Assembly (NCBI RefSeq): GCF_027921745.1
Contig: NC_079238.1
Coordinates: 5,456,001-5,520,000 of the forward strand
DNA length: 64,000 nucleotides
Direction of reading: 5' to 3'
Source: Schizosaccharomyces osmophilus
Lineage: Eukaryota
The notes beneath the pieces were generated by a model. It was not told the origin of the DNA, made no database searches, and worked only from the letters and a program-made list of their open reading frames with translations. Every line of letters starts with the position of its first letter. The stretch's first letter is position 1. Shown piece by piece: positions 2,413 to 61,221 of the stretch. The position numbers and the translations under genes are program-made.

Positions 2413-2991
2413 AAGGAAAAGTGCAAGAAGAGAAAAGCCTACAGAACTCTGAGTACCGATGTTGTCTTCAATCATACATAATAAGAACGATGCCTTCAGG
2501 CGTTCAACTGCATCGTTCTAACGGCTACTGGCCTTGTGATAGCCAGGCATTATTTATGTATAGTCTGAATATCGGAAAGATGTTTAATATTATACATGAT
2601 TGCAGTAATAACTTGTATAATGCAGAATTCCAAGAGTCTGAGGTAGATTTCAATACAAAAAACAAACGGAAATTCTTTCTGTTCGTGAACATTTATTAAC
2701 CACGGTGCGACCTGAGACTTTCCCGTCGATTCGATGCACTATTTCGATCTTGTATATCCTAAAGGGGTTCATTGTTATCTGAAAACTCGTAACGGGATTC
2801 TTGGGATGTAATAAAACCAACGTAATCAGAAAGCTTTCTTTTAAGAAACACTCGCGGCTCAGTCTCATCATAGTTACCACCGTATCCCTCTAGGTATGTT
2901 CTCAAATGGCTGGATTCAAACTATCAATGTCAGAAATAGCTTTAAATTGAGGCAGCCTAGCAGGACGTTCTTGCCCATTGGCAAAAGGAAT
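2413..2991. repeat. Segmental copy of the 41-43 kb locus (degenerate 5S plus 3' end of DUF1773-like pseudogene on the minus strand), without the LTR
   Basis: 2413-2575 is near-identical to 41312-41474; 2571-2991 is near-identical to the reverse complement of about 42625-43045. Confidence 0.93.
2436..2565 (-). pseudogene. Degenerate 5S rRNA copy
   Basis: AGCCTACAG..ATGTTGTCTT..CATA..AACGA.GCCTTCAGGCGTTCAACTGCA aligns with the 5S gene at 51525-51643; the 5' third is very diverged. Confidence 0.7.
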
Positions 2992-29676: not shown

Positions 29677-32579
29677 TGTTAGATCCAACACTTGATGTTG
29701 AAAGGAAAGAATTAAAAGTACATTGCATGATAGCGGGGTCTTTCTTTTTCAGTCAAATGTATTTTTACTTTTTTTTTTTTTTTTTTTTATGATCGATATG
29801 ACTAATTTATATATGCTTTTGAATTTTTCCTTTAATGAATGACTCAGAAAAGAAAAACAATAATAGTACTTTTATTGATTTTCGAGTGGAAACACTACTT
29901 TGGACCGAATCATCTACGGAGCGCGTTCTTAGGTGTTTGAGGTTGATAATTACAGCATTATTTATAGAAATTATAGAAAATCGTTCAAAAAGGAGAATAC
30001 AAAAATCATGTTCTAAAGAATATAAAGACTAAACCATTTAATATCCAGGTTTTTTATCGTATTTTTGATAATCCAAAAGACTGCAAACCTCAGATTTATT
30101 TCAAAAACAGCAAATGGTATAACTAGTGGCTTGATTCCAAAGTCCAATAACGAACTATTCAGCTCCAGTTTCATTGGATACTTATCTGCAAATTGGAATG
30201 AACGACAGGTACAAAATAGAGTTAAGAACATCAATTCCAGCCTTGGCGAAATATAACGGAGCACTTGAAGGATTCGTTTGCTATACAACTAAGGACTCAA
30301 CATAAAAAAGTGAGCTAACTGACTATAAGAAATAACTGGATAATGTAATTATAAATGGGACAATCTTTCCTTAAAAAAGGCATTGCTTCTCAAAAAAAAT
30401 ATCAGTTCTAGTAAAATATTTTAGCAAAAAGATCCCAACTTAAGGATTCTTTGCTCTATTTTTTCGCCTTTATTATAATAGCAACAAATGAACCAAAACA
30501 AACGGAAGAGTATGCATAGTAAATAAAATAAATTAAAGATTCTTTTTAGCGAAATCCCATCTCATCCTCCACTGAATATTTATCATGTTGGGATGCAATT
30601 TAATTACCGTTGTCCATGATCGTAACAAAAAAGAGACGTAACGTAGCTTTAATTTCTTCCCACCCTGCTGTTAAGTCACGAATCGATTTAAATTTTTGGA
30701 AAGCATGAATAGAAAAGTAAAATGTAAAAATGGCTGGCTGGCTCGTTCAAATTGTACTTGGGGCTTCCTTTTCATTGTATAAAAATACAAGTTCTTAAGA
30801 ATTGATCCTTATCAAGCTTCAATTCTTTTTGTATCTGTCGTTGAAAGATATAGAAAAGATGTGATCAAATAACCTCTTACACTCAAAAAAACCTTATGTA
30901 CTGCACTTGCACTTGCACTTGAACTTGTTTTCAAACATGATTGCACATTATCACTTCTACATAAACATCCATCTCATCTCGAAGCGATCATTGTACAAAA
31001 GAGGTATTATGATTTCGGCCGTTTCTTTGTCTTTGTTAACGAATGGATTTCATACCAGGAGGGTTGAGTGTGACTTGCTCAGCTCAACATAACAAAGAAA
31101 AGATGCGAAATCGTTTCTTTATTCTGATCATCAAAAGAAGTGACACATCTCTTTCATCGTCAATAGTATATGATGTACTTGTTTGAACTCTCAATCAAAA
31201 ACAAATGACTTGTAACAAAAGATCACCTATTGTGTGTTTTATAAGCCCTCAAGATGTCGCAAATTTAGGCTTTGTCTTACTCTCTTTGTTTGGAAACTGT
31301 GACGAAATATCATAATGAACAAAAAAAGTAAAAGTGGAGACGTTGTTTTCAAAATTTCTACTTAATGAACCCAATGGCTCTTAAATTTGGTAAATCCAAG
31401 GAACCATCTACCATACCATTGACACTTTCCAAGGTTTATCAAGGTTAATACAATGCGCATCTTTTTAATCAGTCTTTTTTTCACAGCTCTTTTGGGAATC
31501 GGTGTTGCCCATCCGTTGAATAACGGTGAAGTCGTTAAAAACACCACTTCGATTGCTGTTGCTACCCATGAAAGCTTTAAAACTATAACTTCTGTTGCTC
31601 CTCCAGTTTATTATACTGGCAAATCTTAAGAGAGAGAGTAGAATGCACTGTTTCCGATCTAATTCCAGACGGGATGCAATACAATTATTATTATTAACGA
31701 GATGATTCTGAAAGAATATTTATGACTTTTGTTAGAGTACTACTAGAGAGGACAGGAATAAACTGTTTTGCAACTATTGATTTATTATTTACTTTCAGCA
31801 ACACTGTGTAGCACTCGGTAGAAGGAACGAGACCATCAGACGCTTAAATTCAGCTATCAAACGACTACTAGCACTGTGACAGCCAACCGGTGAATTATAA
31901 ATACCTTCAATATTTGAAAAGATGCTAAATTTTATACGTTCATTGCAGTAATAAGCTATAGAATACAGAATTCAACAAGGCTCCGGCAAACTTCATTATA
32001 GAAAGCAAGCACAGATTCTTACTTGCTTTGTTAACATTTATAAGCCATAGCAAAGGTCCTCGTCCATCAATAAATGGGATTGGCTCTGTTTATAAAGTTT
32101 TCAGATCTCTTTGCCGAGGTTTTTGTTTACCTTGAATTCATTTCCGTCAATCTATTTTAATAACATGCACATTACCTCGAAAAACAAATTTAAAAAACCC
32201 AACTTTCTCCTTTAACCTCTACAGGGAAGCTATTTTGTCAGAAGAAAGTAAGCAACTCATCCCTCTATAACCTTATGTTGTTCCGTACAAATATTCTCCT
32301 ACCAAGTACTCCGTATTACAAATTGTAAACAAAGCAAAGTAACAAAACATGAAGCAATTCGAAACGAAAATTGTGCAACTTGAAGAAGAAATTTGTGATG
32401 TTCTTTTTTCTAATCAGTAGATAAGCGCATCTTTTTAGTGCTATATATTCCACCAGGCGACTCACTCAGCAGTAGAACACGCAGAGATCCTTGTAAACAA
32501 AAGGTACCGCTTAACTTGATCCTTCTTTTTGTTTCTTTCCTTTTTTTTGAACTTTCAATTTTCCTTTTTAGCAGACAAC

Positions 32580-40883: not shown

Positions 40884-41334
40884 ATGAATTCCAGCAAGCT
40901 GTTGGTGGTCGGTCGGCTCCAGAGTTGTATATAGAAATTTTTTTCGTCTTTTGTTTTTCTTGTCCTATTATATTATGTTATGCAGCAGAGATTAATCGTT
41001 TCGTACTTTTTACTTTTTATTTAATTCAGTTACTAAATGTGTAGAAGACGATATGTATGAGACGAAGAGTGAAAAACAGAATACAAAAAACTTGTCAGCA
41101 GTATGAAGAACTTTGAATTAATTCCAGCATCATTAGAACTTAAACCTTCATTTAATTGAAAATGCGGGTGATTGTAGTTATTGGTCAAGACACTTGTCAA
41201 ATTTGGTGGGTCGCCTATTTCTTTCATCAAGTCCTTTATGCATAATGAGCAGTACTTGTCCAAGGAGTGATATAGCTTCATTTTATTTGTGTGAACGGAA
41301 GAATATGAATTAAGGAAAAGTGCAAGAAGAGAAA

Positions 41335-41464
41335 AGCCTACAGAACTCTGAGTACCGATGTTGTCTTCTACCATACATAATAAGAACGAGGCCTTCAGGC
41401 GTTCAACTGCATCTTTCTAACGGCTATTGGCCTTGTGATAGCCAGGCACTATTTATGTATAGTC
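41335..41464 (-). pseudogene. Degenerate 5S rRNA copy
   Basis: AGCCTACAG..ATGTTGTCTTCTACCATA..AACGAGGCCTTCAGGCGTTCAACTGCA aligns to 51525 onward; weak similarity continues to TAGTC at 41464. Confidence 0.7.
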
Positions 41465-41474
41465 TGAATATCGG

Positions 41475-41869
41475 TGTCACAGGACGAATCTCACTTGTTA
41501 TGAGAATAAGTATTCAGTGGAAAAGATGTAAGTAATAACAATTCATAAAATTGTATGTTTGACTTTTAAATTGGATACTTTTGTACTATAGAAGAATAGT
41601 AACAGCTTCCAGGGATCTGATTCACTAAGTAAGTTGTATGAACAATTTTATTTAGCTAGATCAGTCAAATCTTCCAATCTGAAGATTTGAGCTTTCCATT
41701 AGAGGTATATATATCTTTCTAGGATTAGTCAGCTTCTATATAACCTTAGTTCTAGATTTATAAAATTTTCAATCGCAAAAATGAACATTTAGTTTTGTAA
41801 TAACGTATTTGATAATACAATACATTTATTGTATCAAGATATTAGTAATATCGTATACCAGTTATGACA
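41475..41869 (-). mobile_element. Solo LTR, inverted, 395 bp
   Basis: Reverse complement of 43046-43440 with no differences seen by eye; TG..CA ends. Confidence 0.96.
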
Positions 41870-42133
41870 AGTAATACCGGCACAGACCATACTTTCATTG
41901 CGTTAGGAGTCGTTAAACCCGTAACGCGGTTGACAGCATCCTTATTCCACCCTCTTCGACCAGCTTGACCGTACGCACGTAAACAACTTGATCGGTGCAC
42001 TCTACCTGATCAACAAACAAGAAAGCCAATCTTCTTATAATGAGTCTAATAAAAGTCGCTGCAAATCAATAATAATATTTTTTCCTTCAATTAGTCTTCA
42101 ATTCTTTTTTCGCTGCTTTGACCCTTTTGAAAA

Positions 42134-42857
42134 ATGAACCAAGATTTATTTGATAATCCATTTGGAATTGCTCCACCCTCTGATGATTCTTATACAGCGC
42201 TCTCAAAGTTTACAAATGAATTCGCAGAGGCGATTCCCCAAGATCGATTTGATTCATTCAGAAGTAAACTGGCGAGCCTTCATAAAGCAGTTACTTCTAA
42301 ACTAGAAGGAGGAGAGACATTTTCACAAGATTTCGAAGAATGTTTCAATTGTCTGATGAAAAGTCAAATGAAAAGATTAATAGTCTCAGAGAAGACATGA
42401 TCCAAGGACACAATAATCTCAGAGAAGACATGATCCAAGAGTCAGATACAAAGTTTGGCATCCTAGAAGGGCAGCTTGTGGTGTTAGAAAACAGTTTTCG
42501 AGTCAATACGGGTAATATTACCTGAAGTATTCGCCAAAATGAATTTAAGCTTAATAAGACAACAACTTTAGCACAGAGATCTGAAAACATTATACACAGA
42601 GTTATGGCTAATGATACGAAGCCAATTCCGTTTGCCAATGGGCAAGAACGTCCTGCTAGGCTGCCTCAATTTAAAGCTATTTCTGACATTGATAGTTTGA
42701 ATCCAGCCATTTGAGAACATACCTAGAGGGATACGGTGGTAACTATGATGAGACTGAGCCGCGAGTGTTTCTTAAAAGAAAGCTTTCTGATTACGTTGGT
42801 TTTATTACATCCCAAGAATCCCGTTACGAGTTTTCAGATAACAATGAACCCCTTTAG
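42134..42857 (+). pseudogene. Mug135/Tdk1-like (DUF1773-like) pseudogene
   Basis: Reconstructed MNQDLFDNPFGIAPP.../..LREDMIQ x2..NIT*...RSENIIHR...IPFANGQERPARLPQFKAISDIDSL/LRTYLEGYG...LKRKLSDYVGF* aligns with the 60613-61221 protein; two frameshifts and a stop at 42523. Confidence 0.85.
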
Positions 42858-43503
42858 GATATACAAGATCGAAATAGTGCATCGAGTCGACGGGAAAGTC
42901 TCAGGTCGCACCATGGTTAATAAATGTTCACAAACAGAAAGAATTTCCGTTTGTTTTTTGTATTGAAATCTACCTCAGACTCCTGGAATTCTGCATTATA
43001 CAAGTTATTACTGCAATCATGTATAATATTAAACATCTTTCCGATTGTCATAACTGGTATACGATATTACTAATATCTTGATACAATAAATGTATTGTAT
43101 TATCAAATACGTTATTACAAAACTAAATGTTCATTTTTGCGATTGAAAATTTTATAAATCTAGAACTAAGGTTATATAGAAGCTGACTAATCCTAGAAAG
43201 ATATATATACCTCTAATGGAAAGCTCAAATCTTCAGATTGGAAGATTTGACTGATCTAGCTAAATAAAATTGTTCATACAACTTACTTAGTGAATCAGAT
43301 CCCTGGAAGCTGTTACTATTCTTCTATAGTACAAAAGTATCCAATTTAAAAGTCAAACATACAATTTTATGAATTGTTATTACTTACATCTTTTCCACTG
43401 AATACTTATTCTCATAACAAGTGAGATTCGTCCTGTGACAATTTATCTTCCAATCTCAAAGTGGAAATAGTTTCGTTCAATTACAAATTAAACGAACATA
43501 AGT

Positions 43504-44370
43504 ATGGAAATGGATTCTGAAAATTCAGGAACTGGATTTTTCGTTAGTGCGGCGGATATGCAAAATCTCAAAGCGGAAATAAGCGATCAACTCAAAGTTA
43601 TATCTGAACAGATGGTTGCTGCAAATCAAGAAAAAATGGCCGAAAAATTAAGTCAAATGGAAATTGACGAAGATTACATCGCCGAAGAACCAATGGACCT
43701 AATTGAAAGTGTTGAGAACGCATATGGTAATAGGGCTGAAAAATACTTAAGACGAATTAATACGAGAGAACCAGAAGTTTATAATCCAGATAAGCATGAA
43801 TTAGATGATTTCTTGCGAGACTTGGAGACCATATACGAAATGGTACGTTTGGTGTTTCCTACTGACCAAGAAAAAATCATGTATCTTTATTCTAAATCCC
43901 AAAGTCATCAGAGACAACAGATAAGAGAAGTGGTAAAGAAACCCGGTCCAAATAGAACGTTCGATTTTGTATTCGAAAAAGTTTTTCGAAGCGGATCAAA
44001 CGATTCTTGGGTAGAGACTCTCCATGAACATCTGGACAAGGCTACTAATTCAGATTTCGATTTCGCAGAGTACAGAAAATGGCTTTTAAATTTGGACATG
44101 GAAACCAACATAAAGATCAGTGCATTCCTATGTCAAAAAATGCATAACCGAAATCAACTCTTAAAAAATAAATATGAAAAAGGAGATCCACAAAAAGCCA
44201 TGAGAGAAACAAATCGCCACGCACGGTATACACCACTTCCAAAACCAACGAAATATACACGCCAACAGTTCTCAACACCGAAACAGAAAGCTTGGAAACC
44301 AAATAAGCGCGAACAAACCAAGAACTGGGATGACTCCAAATATGGAGCGAAATCAAAACCAAGCGAATGA
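43504..44370 (+). CDS. gag: Retrotransposon Gag
   Basis: First ORF after the 5' LTR; EPEVY..LDDFLRDLE capsid-like segment; basic C-terminus; no CCHC knuckle. Confidence 0.85.
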   Translation: MEMDSENSGTGFFVSAADMQNLKAEISDQLKVISEQMVAANQEKMAEKLSQMEIDEDYIAEEPMDLIESVENAYGNRAEKYLRRINTREPEVYNPDKHELDDFLRDLETIYEMVRLVFPTDQEKIMYLYSKSQSHQRQQIREVVKKPGPNRTFDFVFEKVFRSGSNDSWVETLHEHLDKATNSDFDFAEYRKWLLNLDMETNIKISAFLCQKMHNRNQLLKNKYEKGDPQKAMRETNRHARYTPLPKPTKYTRQQFSTPKQKAWKPNKREQTKNWDDSKYGAKSKPSE

Positions 44371-47300
44371 CTAGATAAGGGAAACAAGTCTAGAAGAGAT
44401 GAAGTCGTCTCTATAAACAAAATCATTGCGGGAAATCCACAAAAACACTACGAAAAGCAATCTTCACAATATCAAGATGTCAAAATTGCAAACCTCAAGG
44501 TCAATGCATTGATAGATACTGGCGCCAACGTATCCATCTTGAGAGAAGACCTGGCTAAACAAATTACGCGTAAATTTAATAAAGAAAACCGAACGTTTCT
44601 AGGGATAACAAACGACAAACTTCAAGTTAAAGGAAATTTAACATTGCCAGTAGAAATTAATAAACGAAAATTTTACGAAACGTTTATAATTACTCCGACT
44701 TCAGAAAACGAAGTTCTCCTCGGATGGAGCATTCTGAAAAAATTGAAAAGTTTAGACTTTTTATATGGTAACAAGACAAAGGAAGAAAAGAATAACGACA
44801 AGGAAAATCCAAAAGTCGAAGATCTATTGAAATCATTCAACAAAGTGTTCACAGAAGTTGCAGACATTCCTTTACCCAGACACACAGATAGTGATTTAAA
44901 AATCGAACTTACAAACAAATTGCCAGATTACGCACCGAAACTAAGGCCATATACACAAAAAGAATCTGCGACAATAAAAGAAAACGTGCAAAAATTATTA
45001 AGTCAAGGCAAAATTCGCGAAAGCTCATCAAATTTTATGTGCGCTCCACTAGTTGTACCGAAAAAGGGAACAGATAAATATCGCATGGTTATAAACTATA
45101 AACCACTAAATGCAATCACCAAAAGAGACAATTACCCATTACCAAACTTTGAAGAAATTATAAATTGCCTAAGCGGAGCCAAAGTTTTCAGTACGATTGA
45201 TCTAAAAGAAGCATATCATTTACTTAGAATTCGAGAAGGTGATGAACAAAAGACAGCCTTCAAGACACCCTTTGGAGCATTTGAATACAAAGTAATGCCC
45301 TTCGGATTAACCAATGCGCCAGCAAATTTTCAAAGGTATATTAACAAAGTACTTTTACCATACCTTGGAATTTTTATTATCGTTTATTTGGACGATATTC
45401 TGATATTTTCTTCCTCAGAAAAAGAACACGAGGAACATTTACGAAAAGTATTGCAAAAGCTACAAGACGCAAATTTATACGCAAATCGAGAGAAATGTAC
45501 CTTTTTCCAAAAGAAAGTCAAATTCTTAGGTCATATCTTCTCCAACCAAGGACTTGAGATTGACCCAGAAAGAATTCAAGCTGTTACAAATTGGCCTGAA
45601 CCCAATACGTTGCGACGCCTACAATCTTTCTTAGGTTTTGTTAATTATTCCAGACGATTTATGCCGAATCTTTCAAAATTGGCACGACCGTTATATGATT
45701 TAACAAAAAAGAATGTCAAATACAAATGGACCGATCGTCATAAAGAAGCCTTTGTCAACATCAAGAAAGAACTAGAAAACGTTTCTATGTTAAAACACTA
45801 TGATCCAACAAAAGAAACTCGATTAGAAACTGACGCTTCCGACTTTGCCATAGGAGCCATCCTATCGCAAAAACAAGAAGACAACGTTTATCATCCAATA
45901 GCTTTCTATTCAGAAACATTCACAGATCGTCAATGCATTTGGCCAACATGGGAAAAAGAAGCCTATGCAATTATTGCTGCTCTCCGAAAATGGTATCATT
46001 TCTTAGCTCACACAGAAACACCATTTCAAATATTAACGGATCACAAGAATCTAACATCTATGTTTACAAAAATTCGCACAGATACTCGTTCCAAAATCAA
46101 TAGATGGGCAACAGAATTGGAACTATACAATTTCGAAATTCAATATCGACCTGGCCGAAAGAATGAACCAGCAGACGCAATCTCACGTCGCCCAGATTAT
46201 AAAATCACTGCCATCAATCAACTAAGTGAAGCAAATTATCTAACAAATGTTTTCGATTACGTTCGCAAAGAATACTCCAATCATAAAAATTTTCAAAGAA
46301 TCCTAAATGGAGACAACGACAATCCGCAATATACAATTATAAACGGCCTCATCATTAATGATAAAAGACAAATTATCATCCCAACAGTTCCACAACTAGT
46401 TCAGTTGATATGTTATCAATTCCATGATCATCCTATTTCAGGAGGACATCGAGGAAAACTGTCCACAACAAATCGCATTCGCGAAAAGTTTTATTGGCAA
46501 GGCATGACAAGCGATATCCAAAAGTATGTTAAAAATTGTGATATATGTCAGCACAGTAAAACTCGAAATCATCAACGCTATGGTCAATTACAACCACTGC
46601 CCATTGCAGAAAAACCGTTTCAACATTATTCTATGGATTTTATCGTTGGATTACCAGTATCTCAAGGTAAAGATGCCATCTTAACAATTGTTGATCGTTT
46701 CACCAAAATGGCTTGGTTTCTTCCTTGTAATACAACCACGACCGCAGAACAACTGATCGCAATGTTCGAATCTCACATCGTAGCTGTATACGGCAAACCA
46801 AGAGACATAGTTTCCGATCGAGGACCTGTATTCATTTCTGATAAATGGAAACAATACCTCAAAGATCATAATGTAACACTCAAATTATCTTCTGGATATC
46901 ATCCACAAACGAATGGACAAACTGAACGTGTTAACCAAATAGTAGAAACATATTTACGATGCTATATGCATGACAACTTGGAAAATTGGGCCGCTTATTT
47001 GACAAAAGCACAATTATGTTATAACTCTGCTGAACATAGCGCTACCAAAGTAAGCCCTATAAAGGCCGCATTTGGTATACAACCTATACTAACAGAATGG
47101 GATTTGCAATTGATAAACGATCTCGGTACATCATTTTTATCCTCACAAACAGAACCTGTTCACGAGATCAGAAACCACATACGAAAAGCAAATGAACGTT
47201 ATGCAAAATTATATAATCGCAAGACAGAGATACCGCCGATATTCAAATCCGGTGACCAAGTACTCATTAAGAATGGTAAAGTGGGATTCTTTCATCAAAA

Positions 47301-47658
47301 CAACAAACTGGAACCAACGTTTGTCGGACCATTCGAAATAAAAAAGAAAGTTGCAGAACACAATTATACTTTAAATTTTCCTCGTGAAATACGAAGACGA
47401 TACCCTGCATCATTTCATGTGTCTGAACTCGAACCATACAACGCAGACTCACATGCAAACAACTTTCTAGCAAATATAACTATCGACCGTATATTAGACG
47501 TCGACAACAACCAAAAGCCTTCGCTTTATTACTGTTTATACCATACGAAACTGTCAAACGACTACCTTCGTTCAGTCACTTGGATCCCCACTCACATTGT
47601 TCAACAGAAAGCAGATGCAAAACTCGTTGAATTTAACCACAGCGCTTCATCTCGATAG
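44371..47658 (+). CDS. pol: Retrotransposon Pol (PR-RT-RH-IN plus chromodomain-like tail), in frame with gag
   Basis: DTGA protease, YLDD RT, TDASD RNase H, HHCC and D,D,E integrase, GPF motif; the frame is open directly after the gag TGA. Confidence 0.96.
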   Translation, partial: LDKGNKSRRDEVVSINKIIAGNPQKHYEKQSSQYQDVKIANLKVNALIDTGANVSILREDLAKQITRKFNKENRTFLGITNDKLQVKGNLTLPVEINKRKFYETFIITPTSENEVLLGWSILKKLKSLDFLYGNKTKEEKNNDKENPKVEDLLKSFNKVFTEVADIPLPRHTDSDLKIELTNKLPDYAPKLRPYTQKESATIKENVQKLLSQGKIRESSSNFMCAPLVVPKKGTDKYRMVINYKPLNAITKRDNYPLPNFEEIINCLSGAKVFSTIDLKEAYHLLRIREGDEQKTAFKTPFGAFEYKVMPFGLTNAPANFQRYINKVLLPYLGIFIIVYLDDILIFSSSEKEHEEHLRKVLQKLQDANLYANREKCTFFQKKVKFLGHIFSNQGLEIDPERIQAVTNWPEPNTLRRLQSFLGFVNYSRRFMPNLSKLARPLYDLTKKNVKYKWTDRHKEAFVNIKKELENVSMLKHYDPTKETRLETDASDFAIGAILSQKQEDNVYHPIAFYSETFTDRQCIWPTWEKEAYAIIAALRKWYHFLAHTETPFQILTDHKNLTSMFTKIRTDTRSKINRWATELELYNFEIQYRPGRKNEPADAISRRPDYKITAINQLSEANYLTNVFDYVRKEYSNHKNFQRILNGDNDNPQYTIINGLIINDKRQIIIPTVPQLVQLICYQFHDHPISGGHRGKLSTTNRIREKFYWQGMTSDIQKYVKNCDICQHSKTRNHQRYGQLQPLPIAEKPFQHYSMDFIVGLPVSQGKDAILTIVDRFTKMAWFLPCNTTTTAEQLIAMFESHIVAVYGKPRDIVSDRGPVFISDKWKQYLKDHNVTLKLSSGYHPQTNGQTERVNQIVETYLRCYMHDNLENWAAYLTKAQLCYNSAEHSATKVSPIKAAFGIQPILTEWDLQLINDLGTSFLSSQTEPVHEIRNHIRKANERYAKLYNRKTEIPPIFKSGDQVLIKNGKVGFFHQNNKLEPTFVGPFEIKKKVAEHNYTLNFPREIRRRYPASFHVSELEPYNADSHANNFLANITIDRILDVDNNQKPSLYYCLYHTKLSNDYLRSVTWIPTHIVQQKADAKLVEFNHSASSR

Positions 47659-48176
47659 AACCGCAAGGAATACAAGATCTTTCAATTCAAGGAAGTGAAA
47701 GCGTCTTAAGAAGGGAGGTGTCATAACTGGTATACGATATTACTAATATCTTGATACAATAAATGTATTGTATTATCAAATACGTTATTACAAAACTAAA
47801 TGTTCATTTTTGCGATTGAAAATTTTATAAATCTAGAACTAAGGTTATATAGAAGCTGACTAATCCTAGAAAGATATATATACCTCTAATGGAAAGCTCA
47901 AATCTTCAGATTGGAAGATTTGACTGATCTAGCTAAATAAAATTGTTCATACAACTTACTTAGTGAATCAGATCCCTGGAAGCTGTTACTATTCTTCTAT
48001 AGTACAAAAGTATCCAATTTAAAAGTCAAACATACAATTTTATGAATTGTTATTACTTACATCTTTTCCACTGAATACTTATTCTCATAACAAGTGAGAT
48101 TCGTCCTGTGACACTGTGACATTACTCAATTGCTAATAATATAATCGTAACTGTTCTCTGATAATATTGTATCATG

Positions 48177-48187: not shown

Positions 48188-48431
48188 AATCAATCAATTT
48201 CTGGAACGTTGAAATTATATATTACCTGCAAGAGAAAAAATCAAAAATAATTTAGTCGCTAATGTAAAAAAAAACGAATTCCATTCTTTTGCATGGGTCA
48301 TTGCACTCCCTATCCAATGAAATAGATTAGCCATAAGGATACTACTAACCTGTATCAGAAAAAATAAGAAATTTTAATATGTATGTTTCAACTGATTGAC
48401 AAGACGTGTGAGTGAGGAAAAAAAGTGGTAA

Positions 48432-48555
48432 AACCTACGGCACCCCGGATCCCCATGTTGTCTCCAACCATACTAGGAAAGAGTGAGGTCCTCAGACGCT
48501 TAATTGCAGTGATCGAACGGAAATGGGTCTTTTTTTTCTAAGTGTCGCCGTAGAC
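48432..48555 (-). pseudogene. Diverged 5S rRNA copy
   Basis: ACCTACGGCACCCCGGATCCCCATGTTGTCTCCAACCATA...CTCAGACGCTTAATTGCAGTGATCG...GCCGTAGAC; many substitutions and indels relative to 51525-51643. Confidence 0.9.
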
Positions 48556-49292
48556 GCTTGTTTCTTTCGTAAGAGCAACAAAAGCAATTTGTCTTGCTGT
48601 AGTTTTGTCTTTAAAGTTGTGTGTTGGCCTGGTGTCCTTTAAGATACAATTCTACTCAGCTCTGTCTGTGTGTTTTGTCACGGCTGAATAGAGAATGCTT
48701 CCATATTGTAAGAATAAGATTTAAAAACACACTGTTTTCCTCTTTTCTATTGATTCACATTGTGGTCACAGAAGCATTAGATTGAGTGTATGAGTTTATG
48801 GGTTGAAAATGTTATTTATATAAATCGGTTCTACTTTAATATTTTTCATGATCCGTTGATTTGACTCTCTATATAAACAGGAAATTAAATTTATTAAGCT
48901 ACATCTGTCGAATCTTTTAATCTGAAGATTTGTGCTTTCTACGCTGTGAATCAATTTTACCTCTGGCGATAATCACTTTCGTCCTTGCCATTTATGAATT
49001 ACATGCGGAAAGTACGAAGTTCATTACGGCAGAATTTTCGTCGGAATAAATAAATAATCATTAAAAAGGGTGTTCTATTCACGAAGAAAATGAACGATGC
49101 GTAAGCAACAATGCTGTGAAACAAAATAGAAAATTCATAAAAGAGTGAATGAGTAAAGAAAACAAAGTCTTCCGGATTCATCAGATGCTTGGTTTTGTGA
49201 ACACGAATACAGGAACTTGGTAGACTGCAATTGACGTGGATACTTCCAAAGAAGGAGCGAAATATAAAGAATGAAAGCAGGTTCGGTAAAAC

Positions 49293-51524: not shown

Positions 51525-51643
51525 AGCCTACAGCATCCCGGATTCCCATGTTGTCTCCAACCATAGTACTAACGAGACCCTCAGACGCTTAACTGCAGTG
51601 ATCGGACGGGAACTGGTGTTTTCGCCTAGGTGTGGCCGTAGAC
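51525..51643 (-). rRNA. 5S rRNA gene
   Basis: 119 nt GTCTACGGCCACACCTAGGCG...GCTGTAGGCT followed by a T run; near the fission yeast 5S sequence as I recall it. Confidence 0.95.
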
Positions 51644-60612: not shown

Positions 60613-61221
60613 TTAGTTGAACCCAGAGAAGTGATGACTAAGATCGTAGACGCTGATTAAACCAAGGGCATCACGAAGTCTTTCTTTCATTTTTATCGAC
60701 TCGTTGAAATTGAAGCGGATTCCGTACCCATCTAAGTAGCGAGCGCACTGGTCCCTTGTTAAGCCATCAATGTCTTTAACAGATCTAATTTCTGGCAAAT
60801 CATCATCTGGCTGAGTCCCACCTAGAAAAGGAACGATATTTATAGGAAATCCCATTGATCTTAACTGGATATTTTCCGTTTTTGTATTTCTCATATCCAT
60901 TCTGTTAAATCTCGTTTCCATTCTGTTAAATCTCGTTTCCATTCTGTTAAATCTCGTTTCCATTCTTGAGGGGAATGCATTCTCATCGGTCAGCCAATTC
61001 TGAAACCACCGCGGTGGTTGATCTTCAGCAACCTCTTCTGCTCGTCTTAATTGATTAGCAACATTTTGAATAACTTGGATTCGATGAATCATGCCAACTT
61101 CATTTTGAAGTTGCGAGCTTTTCATAGCAAATTCTAATTCTTTTAAAAACCGATTTACGTCTAAAAAAGTATCATTCTGTGGAGGAGAGATGTCGAAATC
61201 GTTCGCATAGATATTTTCCAT
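60613..61221 (-). CDS. Mug135/Tdk1/Mug2-like (DUF1773-like) coiled-coil protein
   Basis: PPRWFQ, (RMETRFN)x3 heptads, and C-terminal IVPFLGG.QP...LPEIRSVKDIDGLT...CARYLDGYGI...KERLRDALG recalled as the family's C-terminal domain. Confidence 0.8.
   Translation of the reverse strand: MENIYANDFDISPPQNDTFLDVNRFLKELEFAMKSSQLQNEVGMIHRIQVIQNVANQLRRAEEVAEDQPPRWFQNWLTDENAFPSRMETRFNRMETRFNRMETRFNRMDMRNTKTENIQLRSMGFPINIVPFLGGTQPDDDLPEIRSVKDIDGLTRDQCARYLDGYGIRFNFNESIKMKERLRDALGLISVYDLSHHFSGFN
60896..60966. repeat. 21-bp tandem repeat, about 3.3 copies, encoding heptads
   Basis: Unit TCCATTCTGTTAAATCTCGTT repeated exactly. Confidence 0.95.

What the first reader, a model, noticed from the sequence alone, without database searches (positions are those of the whole stretch)
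44341..44530. gag and pol separated by a single in-frame UGA-CUAG: probable stop-codon readthrough
Seen: gag ends ...AGC GAA TGA (44368-44370) CTA GAT. The same frame stays open for 46 codons up to the protease LIDTGA with no ATG before it, so Pol cannot be initiated separately with an intact protease. Readthrough would give a 1384-aa Gag-Pol. Established: UGA-CUA(G) is a leaky-stop context in viruses, animals and fungi; S. pombe Tf1/Tf2 use one ORF and Ty3 uses a +1 frameshift. Inference: this element sets its Gag:Pol ratio by readthrough.
Basis: partly seen in the sequence, partly recalled or inferred. Interest (0 to 1): 0.75.

Follow-up and report, generated by a model that had tools for sequence, protein, structure and literature searches.

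The report
Known leaky stop in Tosmo retrotransposon
An intact fission-yeast jumping gene has one UGA stop between its coat gene and its enzyme gene, which ribosomes likely read through now and then; this layout and its exact sequence context are already published for this element family, so it is ordinary.

Summary
Observation confirmed. A 5,068-bp Ty3/gypsy element (43046-48113, identical 395-bp LTRs) has gag (288 aa), one in-frame TGA (44368-70, GAA-TGA-CTA-G), then 1,095 open codons of PR-RT-RH-IN with no AUG before the protease. It belongs to the Tosmo/Tcry1/Tj1 clade and fits Tosmo3. Jia et al. 2023 (PMC10085805) already report the conserved GAA-TGA-CT(A/G) junction and propose readthrough; removing the Tj1 stop abolishes transposition (PMC4600332). 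My checks agree: three other full-length Gag types (37-56% identical) end at the same Glu, and a divergent Gag type in public contigs keeps GAA-TGA-CTA. Against: sense-codon copies exist, AGA in one decayed copy and ATA in a junction type at three loci. None was shown to be intact. I found no direct measurement of readthrough in these elements, and no RNA data. The scan has noted similar gag-UGA-pol junctions in other genomes. Verdict: real, probably readthrough (0.85), already known. The only fresh lead is the stop-less ATA sub-lineage.

The parts
43046..43440 (+). 5' LTR, 395 bp, TGTCA...TGACA
   Evidence: identical to the 3' LTR
43235..43246 (+). predicted self-primer (5' end of the RNA), 33 nt downstream of a TATA-like box at 43202
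   Evidence: 12-bp perfect complement to 43445-43456, paired in the MFE fold; start site inferred
43445..43456 (+). primer-binding site of the self-priming (Tf1/sushi) type
43504..44370 (+). gag, 288 aa, no CCHC motif
   Evidence: 55% identical to GenBank Gag UWL51800.1 of S. osmophilus
44365..44374 (+). GAA-TGA-CTA-G junction: in-frame stop in a readthrough-permissive context
   Evidence: conservation
44371..44412 (+). two predicted hairpins 3' of the stop (44371-44393, 44395-44412); role unproven
   Evidence: z -2.2 to -3.5; junction windows rank 4th and 5th of 105, 7 of 105 reach z<=-2
44371..47658 (+). pol, 1095 codons: protease (44476-44748, DTG at 44515), RT (45055-45537, YLDD), RNase H (45727-46128), integrase HHCC/core/SH3 (46393-47439), chromodomain-like tail (47476-47634)
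   Evidence: tail matches the Tosmo rows of Fig. S10A text; 65% identical to S. cryophilus SPOG_05677
47704..47718 (+). TCTT followed by polypurine tract
   Evidence: TCTT is described as a mark of this clade
47719..48113 (+). 3' LTR, followed by an 8-nt repeat of its own end (48114-48121) and TTACT
41475..41869 (-). third, identical solo LTR in inverted orientation; target-site duplications are swapped with the full element

Best explanation
The TGA at 44368-44370 is the stop of gag in an intact Tosmo-type retrotransposon, and Pol is likely made when a small share of ribosomes read through it to give a predicted 1384-aa Gag-Pol. Most ribosomes would stop and release 288-aa Gag. A minority would insert an amino acid at the UGA, favoured by the weak termination context (AA before, CUA after), and continue through protease, RT, RNase H and integrase; the protease would then cut the fusion. 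This keeps Gag in excess over Pol. Shown here: the layout, the lack of a Pol AUG, conservation of the stop. Taken from papers: conservation in Tosmo1-3, Tcry1 and Tj1; need for the stop in Tj1; leakiness of UGA-CU(A) in Ustilago and human cells. Inferred: that bypass is by readthrough, its rate, the inserted residue, any role of the hairpins.
For: Layout and no in-frame AUG before RT. All catalytic motifs present, LTRs identical. 4 of 4 full-length Gag types aligned (window, P0007, P0010, P0011; 37-56% identical, two species) end in Glu at the same place (the fifth row, P0012, is a 106-aa fragment). A divergent Gag type in runs X1-X3 (one sample) reads GAA-TGA-CTA with the stop in register (table 7). 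A variant copy bridging the site keeps TGA while synonymous positions 44358 and 44376 change (X2 record 13). PMC10085805 section 28: 8-bp GAA-TGA-CT strictly conserved in 5 elements. PMC4600332: stop removal gives virtually no Tj1 transposition. PMC4207609: UGA CU(A) is a readthrough core motif. Splicing, reinitiation and frameshift routes look poor.
Against: No direct measurement for any of these elements was found, and PMC4207609 passages do not mention fission yeast. The Tj1 result shows that the stop is needed, not how it is bypassed. Sense codons do occur at this position: Arg in SOMG_02337 (no intron; T>A at 44368 in one contig of X1, depth 159 of 903, and in the only X3 contig listed over the site), and Ile/ATA in SOMG_00063, SOMG_03736 and the mating-type INT4 copy. 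In Tca2, a look-alike gag-UGA-pol junction gave only background readthrough (0.3%) in S. cerevisiae and held a cryptic promoter (PMC2194720).
Confidence: 0.85

Rival explanations
1. The stop is real and conserved, but Pol is made by another bypass: rare splicing that removes the stop, an internal promoter with a non-AUG start, or RNA editing of UGA to UGG.
For: Tca2 precedent for a junction promoter and for failure of local readthrough. A GTACGT donor-like site at 43843 could join in frame to 4 of 10 acceptor-like AGs. In-frame near-cognate codons (ATA, ATC, ATT) lie upstream of the protease.
Against: Those introns would be 537-657 nt, remove over half of Gag, and none has a branch-like YTRAY 5-30 nt upstream. 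The AG at 44373-44374 is absent in the divergent type (CTAA). Conservation is confined to the stop and its immediate neighbours, as expected of a termination context. Free Pol would need a route into the particle (argument in PMC2194720). Stop-correcting A-to-I editing is to my recollection known from filamentous ascomycetes, not fission yeast.
Confidence: 0.1
2. The TGA is a private nonsense mutation or sequencing error in a single-ORF element like Tf1/Tf2.
For: Tf1/Tf2 are single-ORF; sense codons occur at this position in some copies.
Against: The stop is shared by Gags 37-56% identical in two species and by Tj1; independent contigs keep it; the Arg copy has a DTGP protease motif and ends at residue 442; only 1 of 675 nonsense-capable changes would give this context.
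Confidence: 0.02
3. Termination-reinitiation at the AUG overlapping the stop (GA-AUG-A), or a frameshift round the stop.
For: An ATG at 44367 overlaps the stop and lies in the conserved 8-mer.
Against: It is out of the pol frame and meets TAA at 44376 after 3 codons; the other frame has TAG at 44372; no slippery heptamer lies upstream of the stop in 44200-44368. Two opposite shifts would be needed.
Confidence: 0.03

Closest known systems
Tosmo1/2/3 of Schizosaccharomyces osmophilus (OP263985-OP263987; PMC10085805), best fit Tosmo3
   Same: In-frame GAA-TGA-CT junction, TGTCA...TGACA LTR ends, self-priming PBS, TCTT before the PPT, Gag without CCHC, chromodomain letters. Gag is 55% identical to another S. 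osmophilus Gag, the figure given for Tosmo2 vs Tosmo3; the chromodomain starts IT as in Tosmo1/Tosmo3 (II in Tosmo2); no direct TSD, and the paper lists TSDs for the other three intact copies only.
   Different: No difference found. I could not align to the GenBank DNA; the assignment to Tosmo3 rather than a sibling is inferred.
Tcry1 (S. cryophilus, BK061829) and Tj1 (S. japonicus, KT447435; PMC4600332)
   Same: Same stop and context per PMC10085805; Tcry1 Gag (DBA06761.1) ends in Glu at the same place; the Tj1 stop is required for transposition.
   Different: Tcry1 Gag about 37% identical; an S. cryophilus Pol is 65% identical. Tj1 sequence was not retrieved.
Tf1/Tf2 of S. pombe
   Same: Same Tf1/sushi chromovirus clade, self-priming, TCTT-PPT.
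   Different: Single ORF, no stop between gag and pol.
Tca2 of Candida albicans; type C retroviruses (MuLV)
   Same: gag and pol in frame, separated by one stop.
   Different: Tca2 is copia-type (recalled) and its junction did not direct readthrough in S. cerevisiae; MuLV uses a downstream pseudoknot with UAG (recalled). No pseudoknot was tested here.

Membership tests
Ty3/gypsy LTR retrotransposon | Paired LTRs; pol order PR-RT-RH-IN | tested here: met
Ty3/gypsy LTR retrotransposon | Target-site duplication | tested here: inconclusive
   No direct TSD (CCGAT left, CTGTG right); TSDs CCGAT and TTACT are recovered if 41870-43045 was inverted between LTRs
Tf1/sushi chromovirus group | Self-priming: PBS complementary to the 5' end of its own RNA | tested here: met
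   12-bp complement 43235-43246 / 43445-43456; start site predicted; full three-duplex pretzel not reproduced by the MFE fold
Tf1/sushi chromovirus group | Chromodomain at the end of integrase | tested here: met
   No Pfam chromo hit at E<=0.1, but the tail matches by eye the Tosmo rows of the chromodomain alignment text in Fig. S10A
Fission-yeast stop-codon clade (Tosmo1-3, Tcry1, Tj1) | GAA-TGA-CT(A/G) at the gag-pol junction | tested here: met
Fission-yeast stop-codon clade (Tosmo1-3, Tcry1, Tj1) | Gag lacks CCHC; TCTT before PPT; TGTCA/TGACA ends | tested here: met
Fission-yeast stop-codon clade (Tosmo1-3, Tcry1, Tj1) | RT-IN phylogenetic placement | not tested
   No tree built; only pairwise identity, 65% to an S. 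cryophilus Pol
Tosmo3 | DNA identity to OP263987 | not testable with these tools
   Record not available; indirect fit
Programmed stop-codon readthrough | Measured readthrough product above background, dependent on the context | not testable with these tools
   No ribosome profiling, proteomics or raw RNA reads available
Structure-stimulated readthrough (MuLV type) | Conserved 3' RNA structure a few nt after the stop | tested here: inconclusive
   Two hairpins predicted, not exceptional within the element; too few homologous DNA sequences for covariation

The most novel reading that the evidence does not exclude
The Tosmo family switches between two expression strategies: beside the readthrough elements, a sub-lineage with GAA-ATA-CTA-G (Ile in place of the stop, with its own diverged spacer and protease) was an active single-ORF element that spread to at least three loci. 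That would contradict the proposal in PMC10085805 that single-ORF elements were lost in this lineage, contrast with the Tj1 stop-removal result, and give a natural pair for testing how the Gag:Pol ratio is set without a stop.
Probability: 0.2. Interest if true: 0.45.

Novelty: already known. Interest (0 to 1): 0.13.

Why it matters
As it stands it adds little: the junction, its conservation and the readthrough proposal are in print for this family. What remains open is the measurement: in four literature searches I found no readthrough rate, inserted residue or cis-element test for any fission-yeast element, and Tj1 already transposes in S. pombe, so the test is easy. The stop-less ATA junction type is the one lead not covered in the sections I read.

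Tried and rejected
Whole genome: none held, so copies could not be counted at DNA level. Metagenome scan with the Gag alignment: 594 pattern matches, none confirmed. Search for longer (775-2210 aa) proteins with this Gag: 0 of 2693 candidates; weak evidence, and 505-774 aa was not covered. Pol residues 1-240 search: 1 hit among 1742 candidates. Sequencing runs: no RNA holder listed; X5 is only guessed to be RNA and did not cover the junction; X4 did not cover the stop. Motif search in the paper's GenBank supplements found no match to the window's own junction. Supplementary Table 18 (element list, TSDs) is not in the held text, and Fig. 4b and S11 alignments are pictures I could not see; they bear on the Tosmo3 assignment and on whether the ATA-type copies were noticed. 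A special role for the 3' hairpins was considered and left unproven. Selenocysteine was dismissed from recalled knowledge (no such machinery in S. pombe), not tested. Pfam gave no significant hit for Gag.

Full report
Observation. The coordinates are right. Gag runs 43504-44370 (288 aa) and ends AGC GAA TGA; the same frame then stays open for 1,095 codons to 47658. Forty-six codons precede the L of LIDTGA; none of the 6 ATGs in 44300-44560 is in the pol frame, and the first in-frame Met is residue 223, past the protease. Readthrough would give 1,384 aa. TGACTAG occurs once per strand in the window, so the word alone means little; but only 1 of 675 possible single-base nonsense changes elsewhere in this ORF would produce TGA-CT(A/G) (unweighted).

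The element. It spans 43046-48113 (5,068 bp) with identical 395-bp LTRs ending TGTCA...TGACA. Pol holds protease, RT, RNase H, integrase and SH3 domains in Ty3/gypsy order, with DTG, YLDD and HHCC motifs intact; Gag has no CCHC. A 12-nt stretch inside the LTR is complementary to the sequence just after the LTR, the self-priming arrangement of Tf1/sushi elements, and TCTT precedes the polypurine tract.

What is in print. PMC10085805 (Jia et al. 2023; I read the abstract, passages, sections 17 and 28 in full, and supplement parts 1, 31, 32 and table rows; figures not seen) states that Tosmo1, Tosmo2, Tosmo3, Tcry1 and Tj1 all have an in-frame stop between gag and pol, that GAA-TGA-CT is strictly conserved, and that they appear to use readthrough. 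PMC4600332 (Guo et al. 2015; abstract and passages) shows that removing the Tj1 stop gives virtually no transposition. PMC4207609 (passages) gives UGA CU(A) as a readthrough core motif. The window's Gag is 55% identical to a GenBank Gag of S. osmophilus, the value the paper gives for Tosmo2 versus Tosmo3; its chromodomain letters match Tosmo1/Tosmo3; and it lacks a direct TSD. Tosmo3 is the best fit; this is inferred, as the GenBank DNA could not be aligned.

Independent checks for. A profile search of 1.84 billion representatives returned 8 proteins; the two further full-length Gags are from S. cryophilus, one being the third-party-annotated Gag DBA06761.1. All 4 full-length Gag types aligned end in Glu at the same column despite 37-56% identity. 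In contigs of runs X1-X3 (one sample), a Gag type too divergent to lay on the window joins it at 44383 and reads GAA-TGA-CTA-A with the stop in register (table 7). A variant copy bridging the site keeps TGA with two synonymous changes nearby (X2 record 13). So the conserved part is GAA-UGA-CU(A/G); the fourth base G is optional.

Checks against. Sense codons exist at the stop position. SOMG_02337 (P0004) has Gag 284 of 288 identical to the window's and Arg there; its gene span equals its coding length, so this is no intron artefact. The same allele (T>A at 44368, AGA) is in one X1 contig (depth 159 of 903) and in the only X3 contig listed over the site, which also carries the R253C and T258I changes of P0004. 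This copy looks decayed: DTGP in the protease motif, 29 differences in the 153 aligned positions after the junction, ORF ending at 442 aa. A second type, SOMG_00063 and SOMG_03736 (94% identical to each other), has Ile there. The near-full-length but broken INT4 copy in the published mating-type donor region has the same junction type; read by eye it is GAA-ATA-CTA-G, collinear with the window, and the 37-nt intron annotated in the two genes maps by my reading to the protease C-terminal part, not to the junction. The upstream part of this type also shows as a loose end in all 4 runs laid, two samples, but its junction codon is not visible there. None of these copies was shown to be intact, and the paper found only four intact elements, all of families with the stop. 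The private-mutation rival fails, but the stop can evidently be lost and the loss inherited by several copies.

Mechanism. Readthrough is the most likely bypass (0.85). Reinitiation at the overlapping ATG gives 3 codons in the wrong frame; both other frames close within 8 nt of the stop; no slippery heptamer precedes it. In-frame splicing would need 537-657-nt introns without a branch-like site. The caution is Tca2 (PMC2194720; abstract and Discussion), where a similar junction gave background readthrough in S. cerevisiae and contained a weak promoter. Two hairpins are predicted after the stop (z -2.2 to -3.5), and the variant 44376 T>C would turn a U-G pair into C-G; but 7 of 105 windows in the element reach z<=-2 and the first hairpin starts at +1, where the ribosome would cover it (general knowledge). 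No role is claimed.

Not in print as far as searched. (listings only, apart from the papers named) showed no direct readthrough measurement for a fission-yeast element and no mention of a stop-less Tosmo type; the library lacks most subscription papers, and Supplementary Table 18 was not in the held text. Earlier notes of this scan describe comparable gag-UGA-pol junctions in copia and DIRS elements of other genomes, none in fission yeast among the 8 shown; they were not used as support.

Verdict. Real feature, interpretation probably right, already known. Interest 0.13. The most novel reading left open is a once-active single-ORF Tosmo sub-lineage (probability 0.2, interest 0.45 if true).

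Noticed in passing
window 41470-43045 and 48114-48126; paralogue 2403-2991: LTR-mediated inversion. A third identical LTR lies inverted at 41475-41869. Its flanks (TTACT, CCGAT in LTR orientation) are swapped with those of the full element (CCGAT, TTACT), so the 1,176 bp between them were probably flipped by recombination between inverted LTRs. An empty paralogous site agrees: 2403-2575 matches 41302-41474 directly (94.8%) and 2571-2991 matches 43045-42625 inverted (98.8%), with ATCGG once. This explains the missing TSD.
   Followed up: yes
window 48114-48121: The last 8 nt of the 3' LTR are repeated in tandem before the target-site remnant; the paper describes a different 8-bp tandem duplication in the 3' LTR of Tcry1-1.
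   Followed up: partly
P0002, P0006 (SOMG_00063, SOMG_03736); PMC10085805 File S4 INT4: A Tosmo junction type with ATA (Ile) in place of the TGA, keeping GAA before and CTAG after, with a diverged spacer and protease on a Gag 91-94% identical to P0007; at least three loci, none shown intact.
   Followed up: partly
P0004 (SOMG_02337); runs X1 and X3 at window 44368: A decayed sister copy with TGA changed to AGA (Arg), annotated as a 442-aa host 'hypothetical protein'.
   Followed up: yes
window 2425-2531, 41324-41434, 48419-48563, weakly 31826-31853; intact 5S at 51525-51643 (-): Degenerate 5S rDNA-like copies (70-79% identical to the intact gene) that Rfam does not call. By extrapolation the inverted LTR's insertion site lies about 12-17 bp upstream of the 5' end of the 41324-41434 remnant, reminiscent of Tj1 targeting Pol III genes; weak, since the remnant is decayed.
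   Followed up: partly
window 44239-44370 (Gag C-terminal 45 aa): Two Gags only 55% identical overall share an identical last 45 residues up to the stop, a recombination mosaic like the one the paper describes; another divergent Gag joins the shared sequence at 44383.
   Followed up: partly
window 48887-48939 (-): 53-bp remnant 85% identical to the conserved R-region of the LTR.
   Followed up: no
window 60613-61221 (-): 202-aa ORF with a 21-nt tandem repeat (METRFNR units) at 60873-60956; not examined.
   Followed up: no
window 3951-59016: Gene content typical of a subtelomere-like region: MFS transporters, ferric reductase, sulfatase, two 2OG-Fe oxygenase-like ORFs, nitrilase-like and deaminase-like ORFs (labels recalled from the translations; only the ferric reductase was tested).
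   Followed up: no
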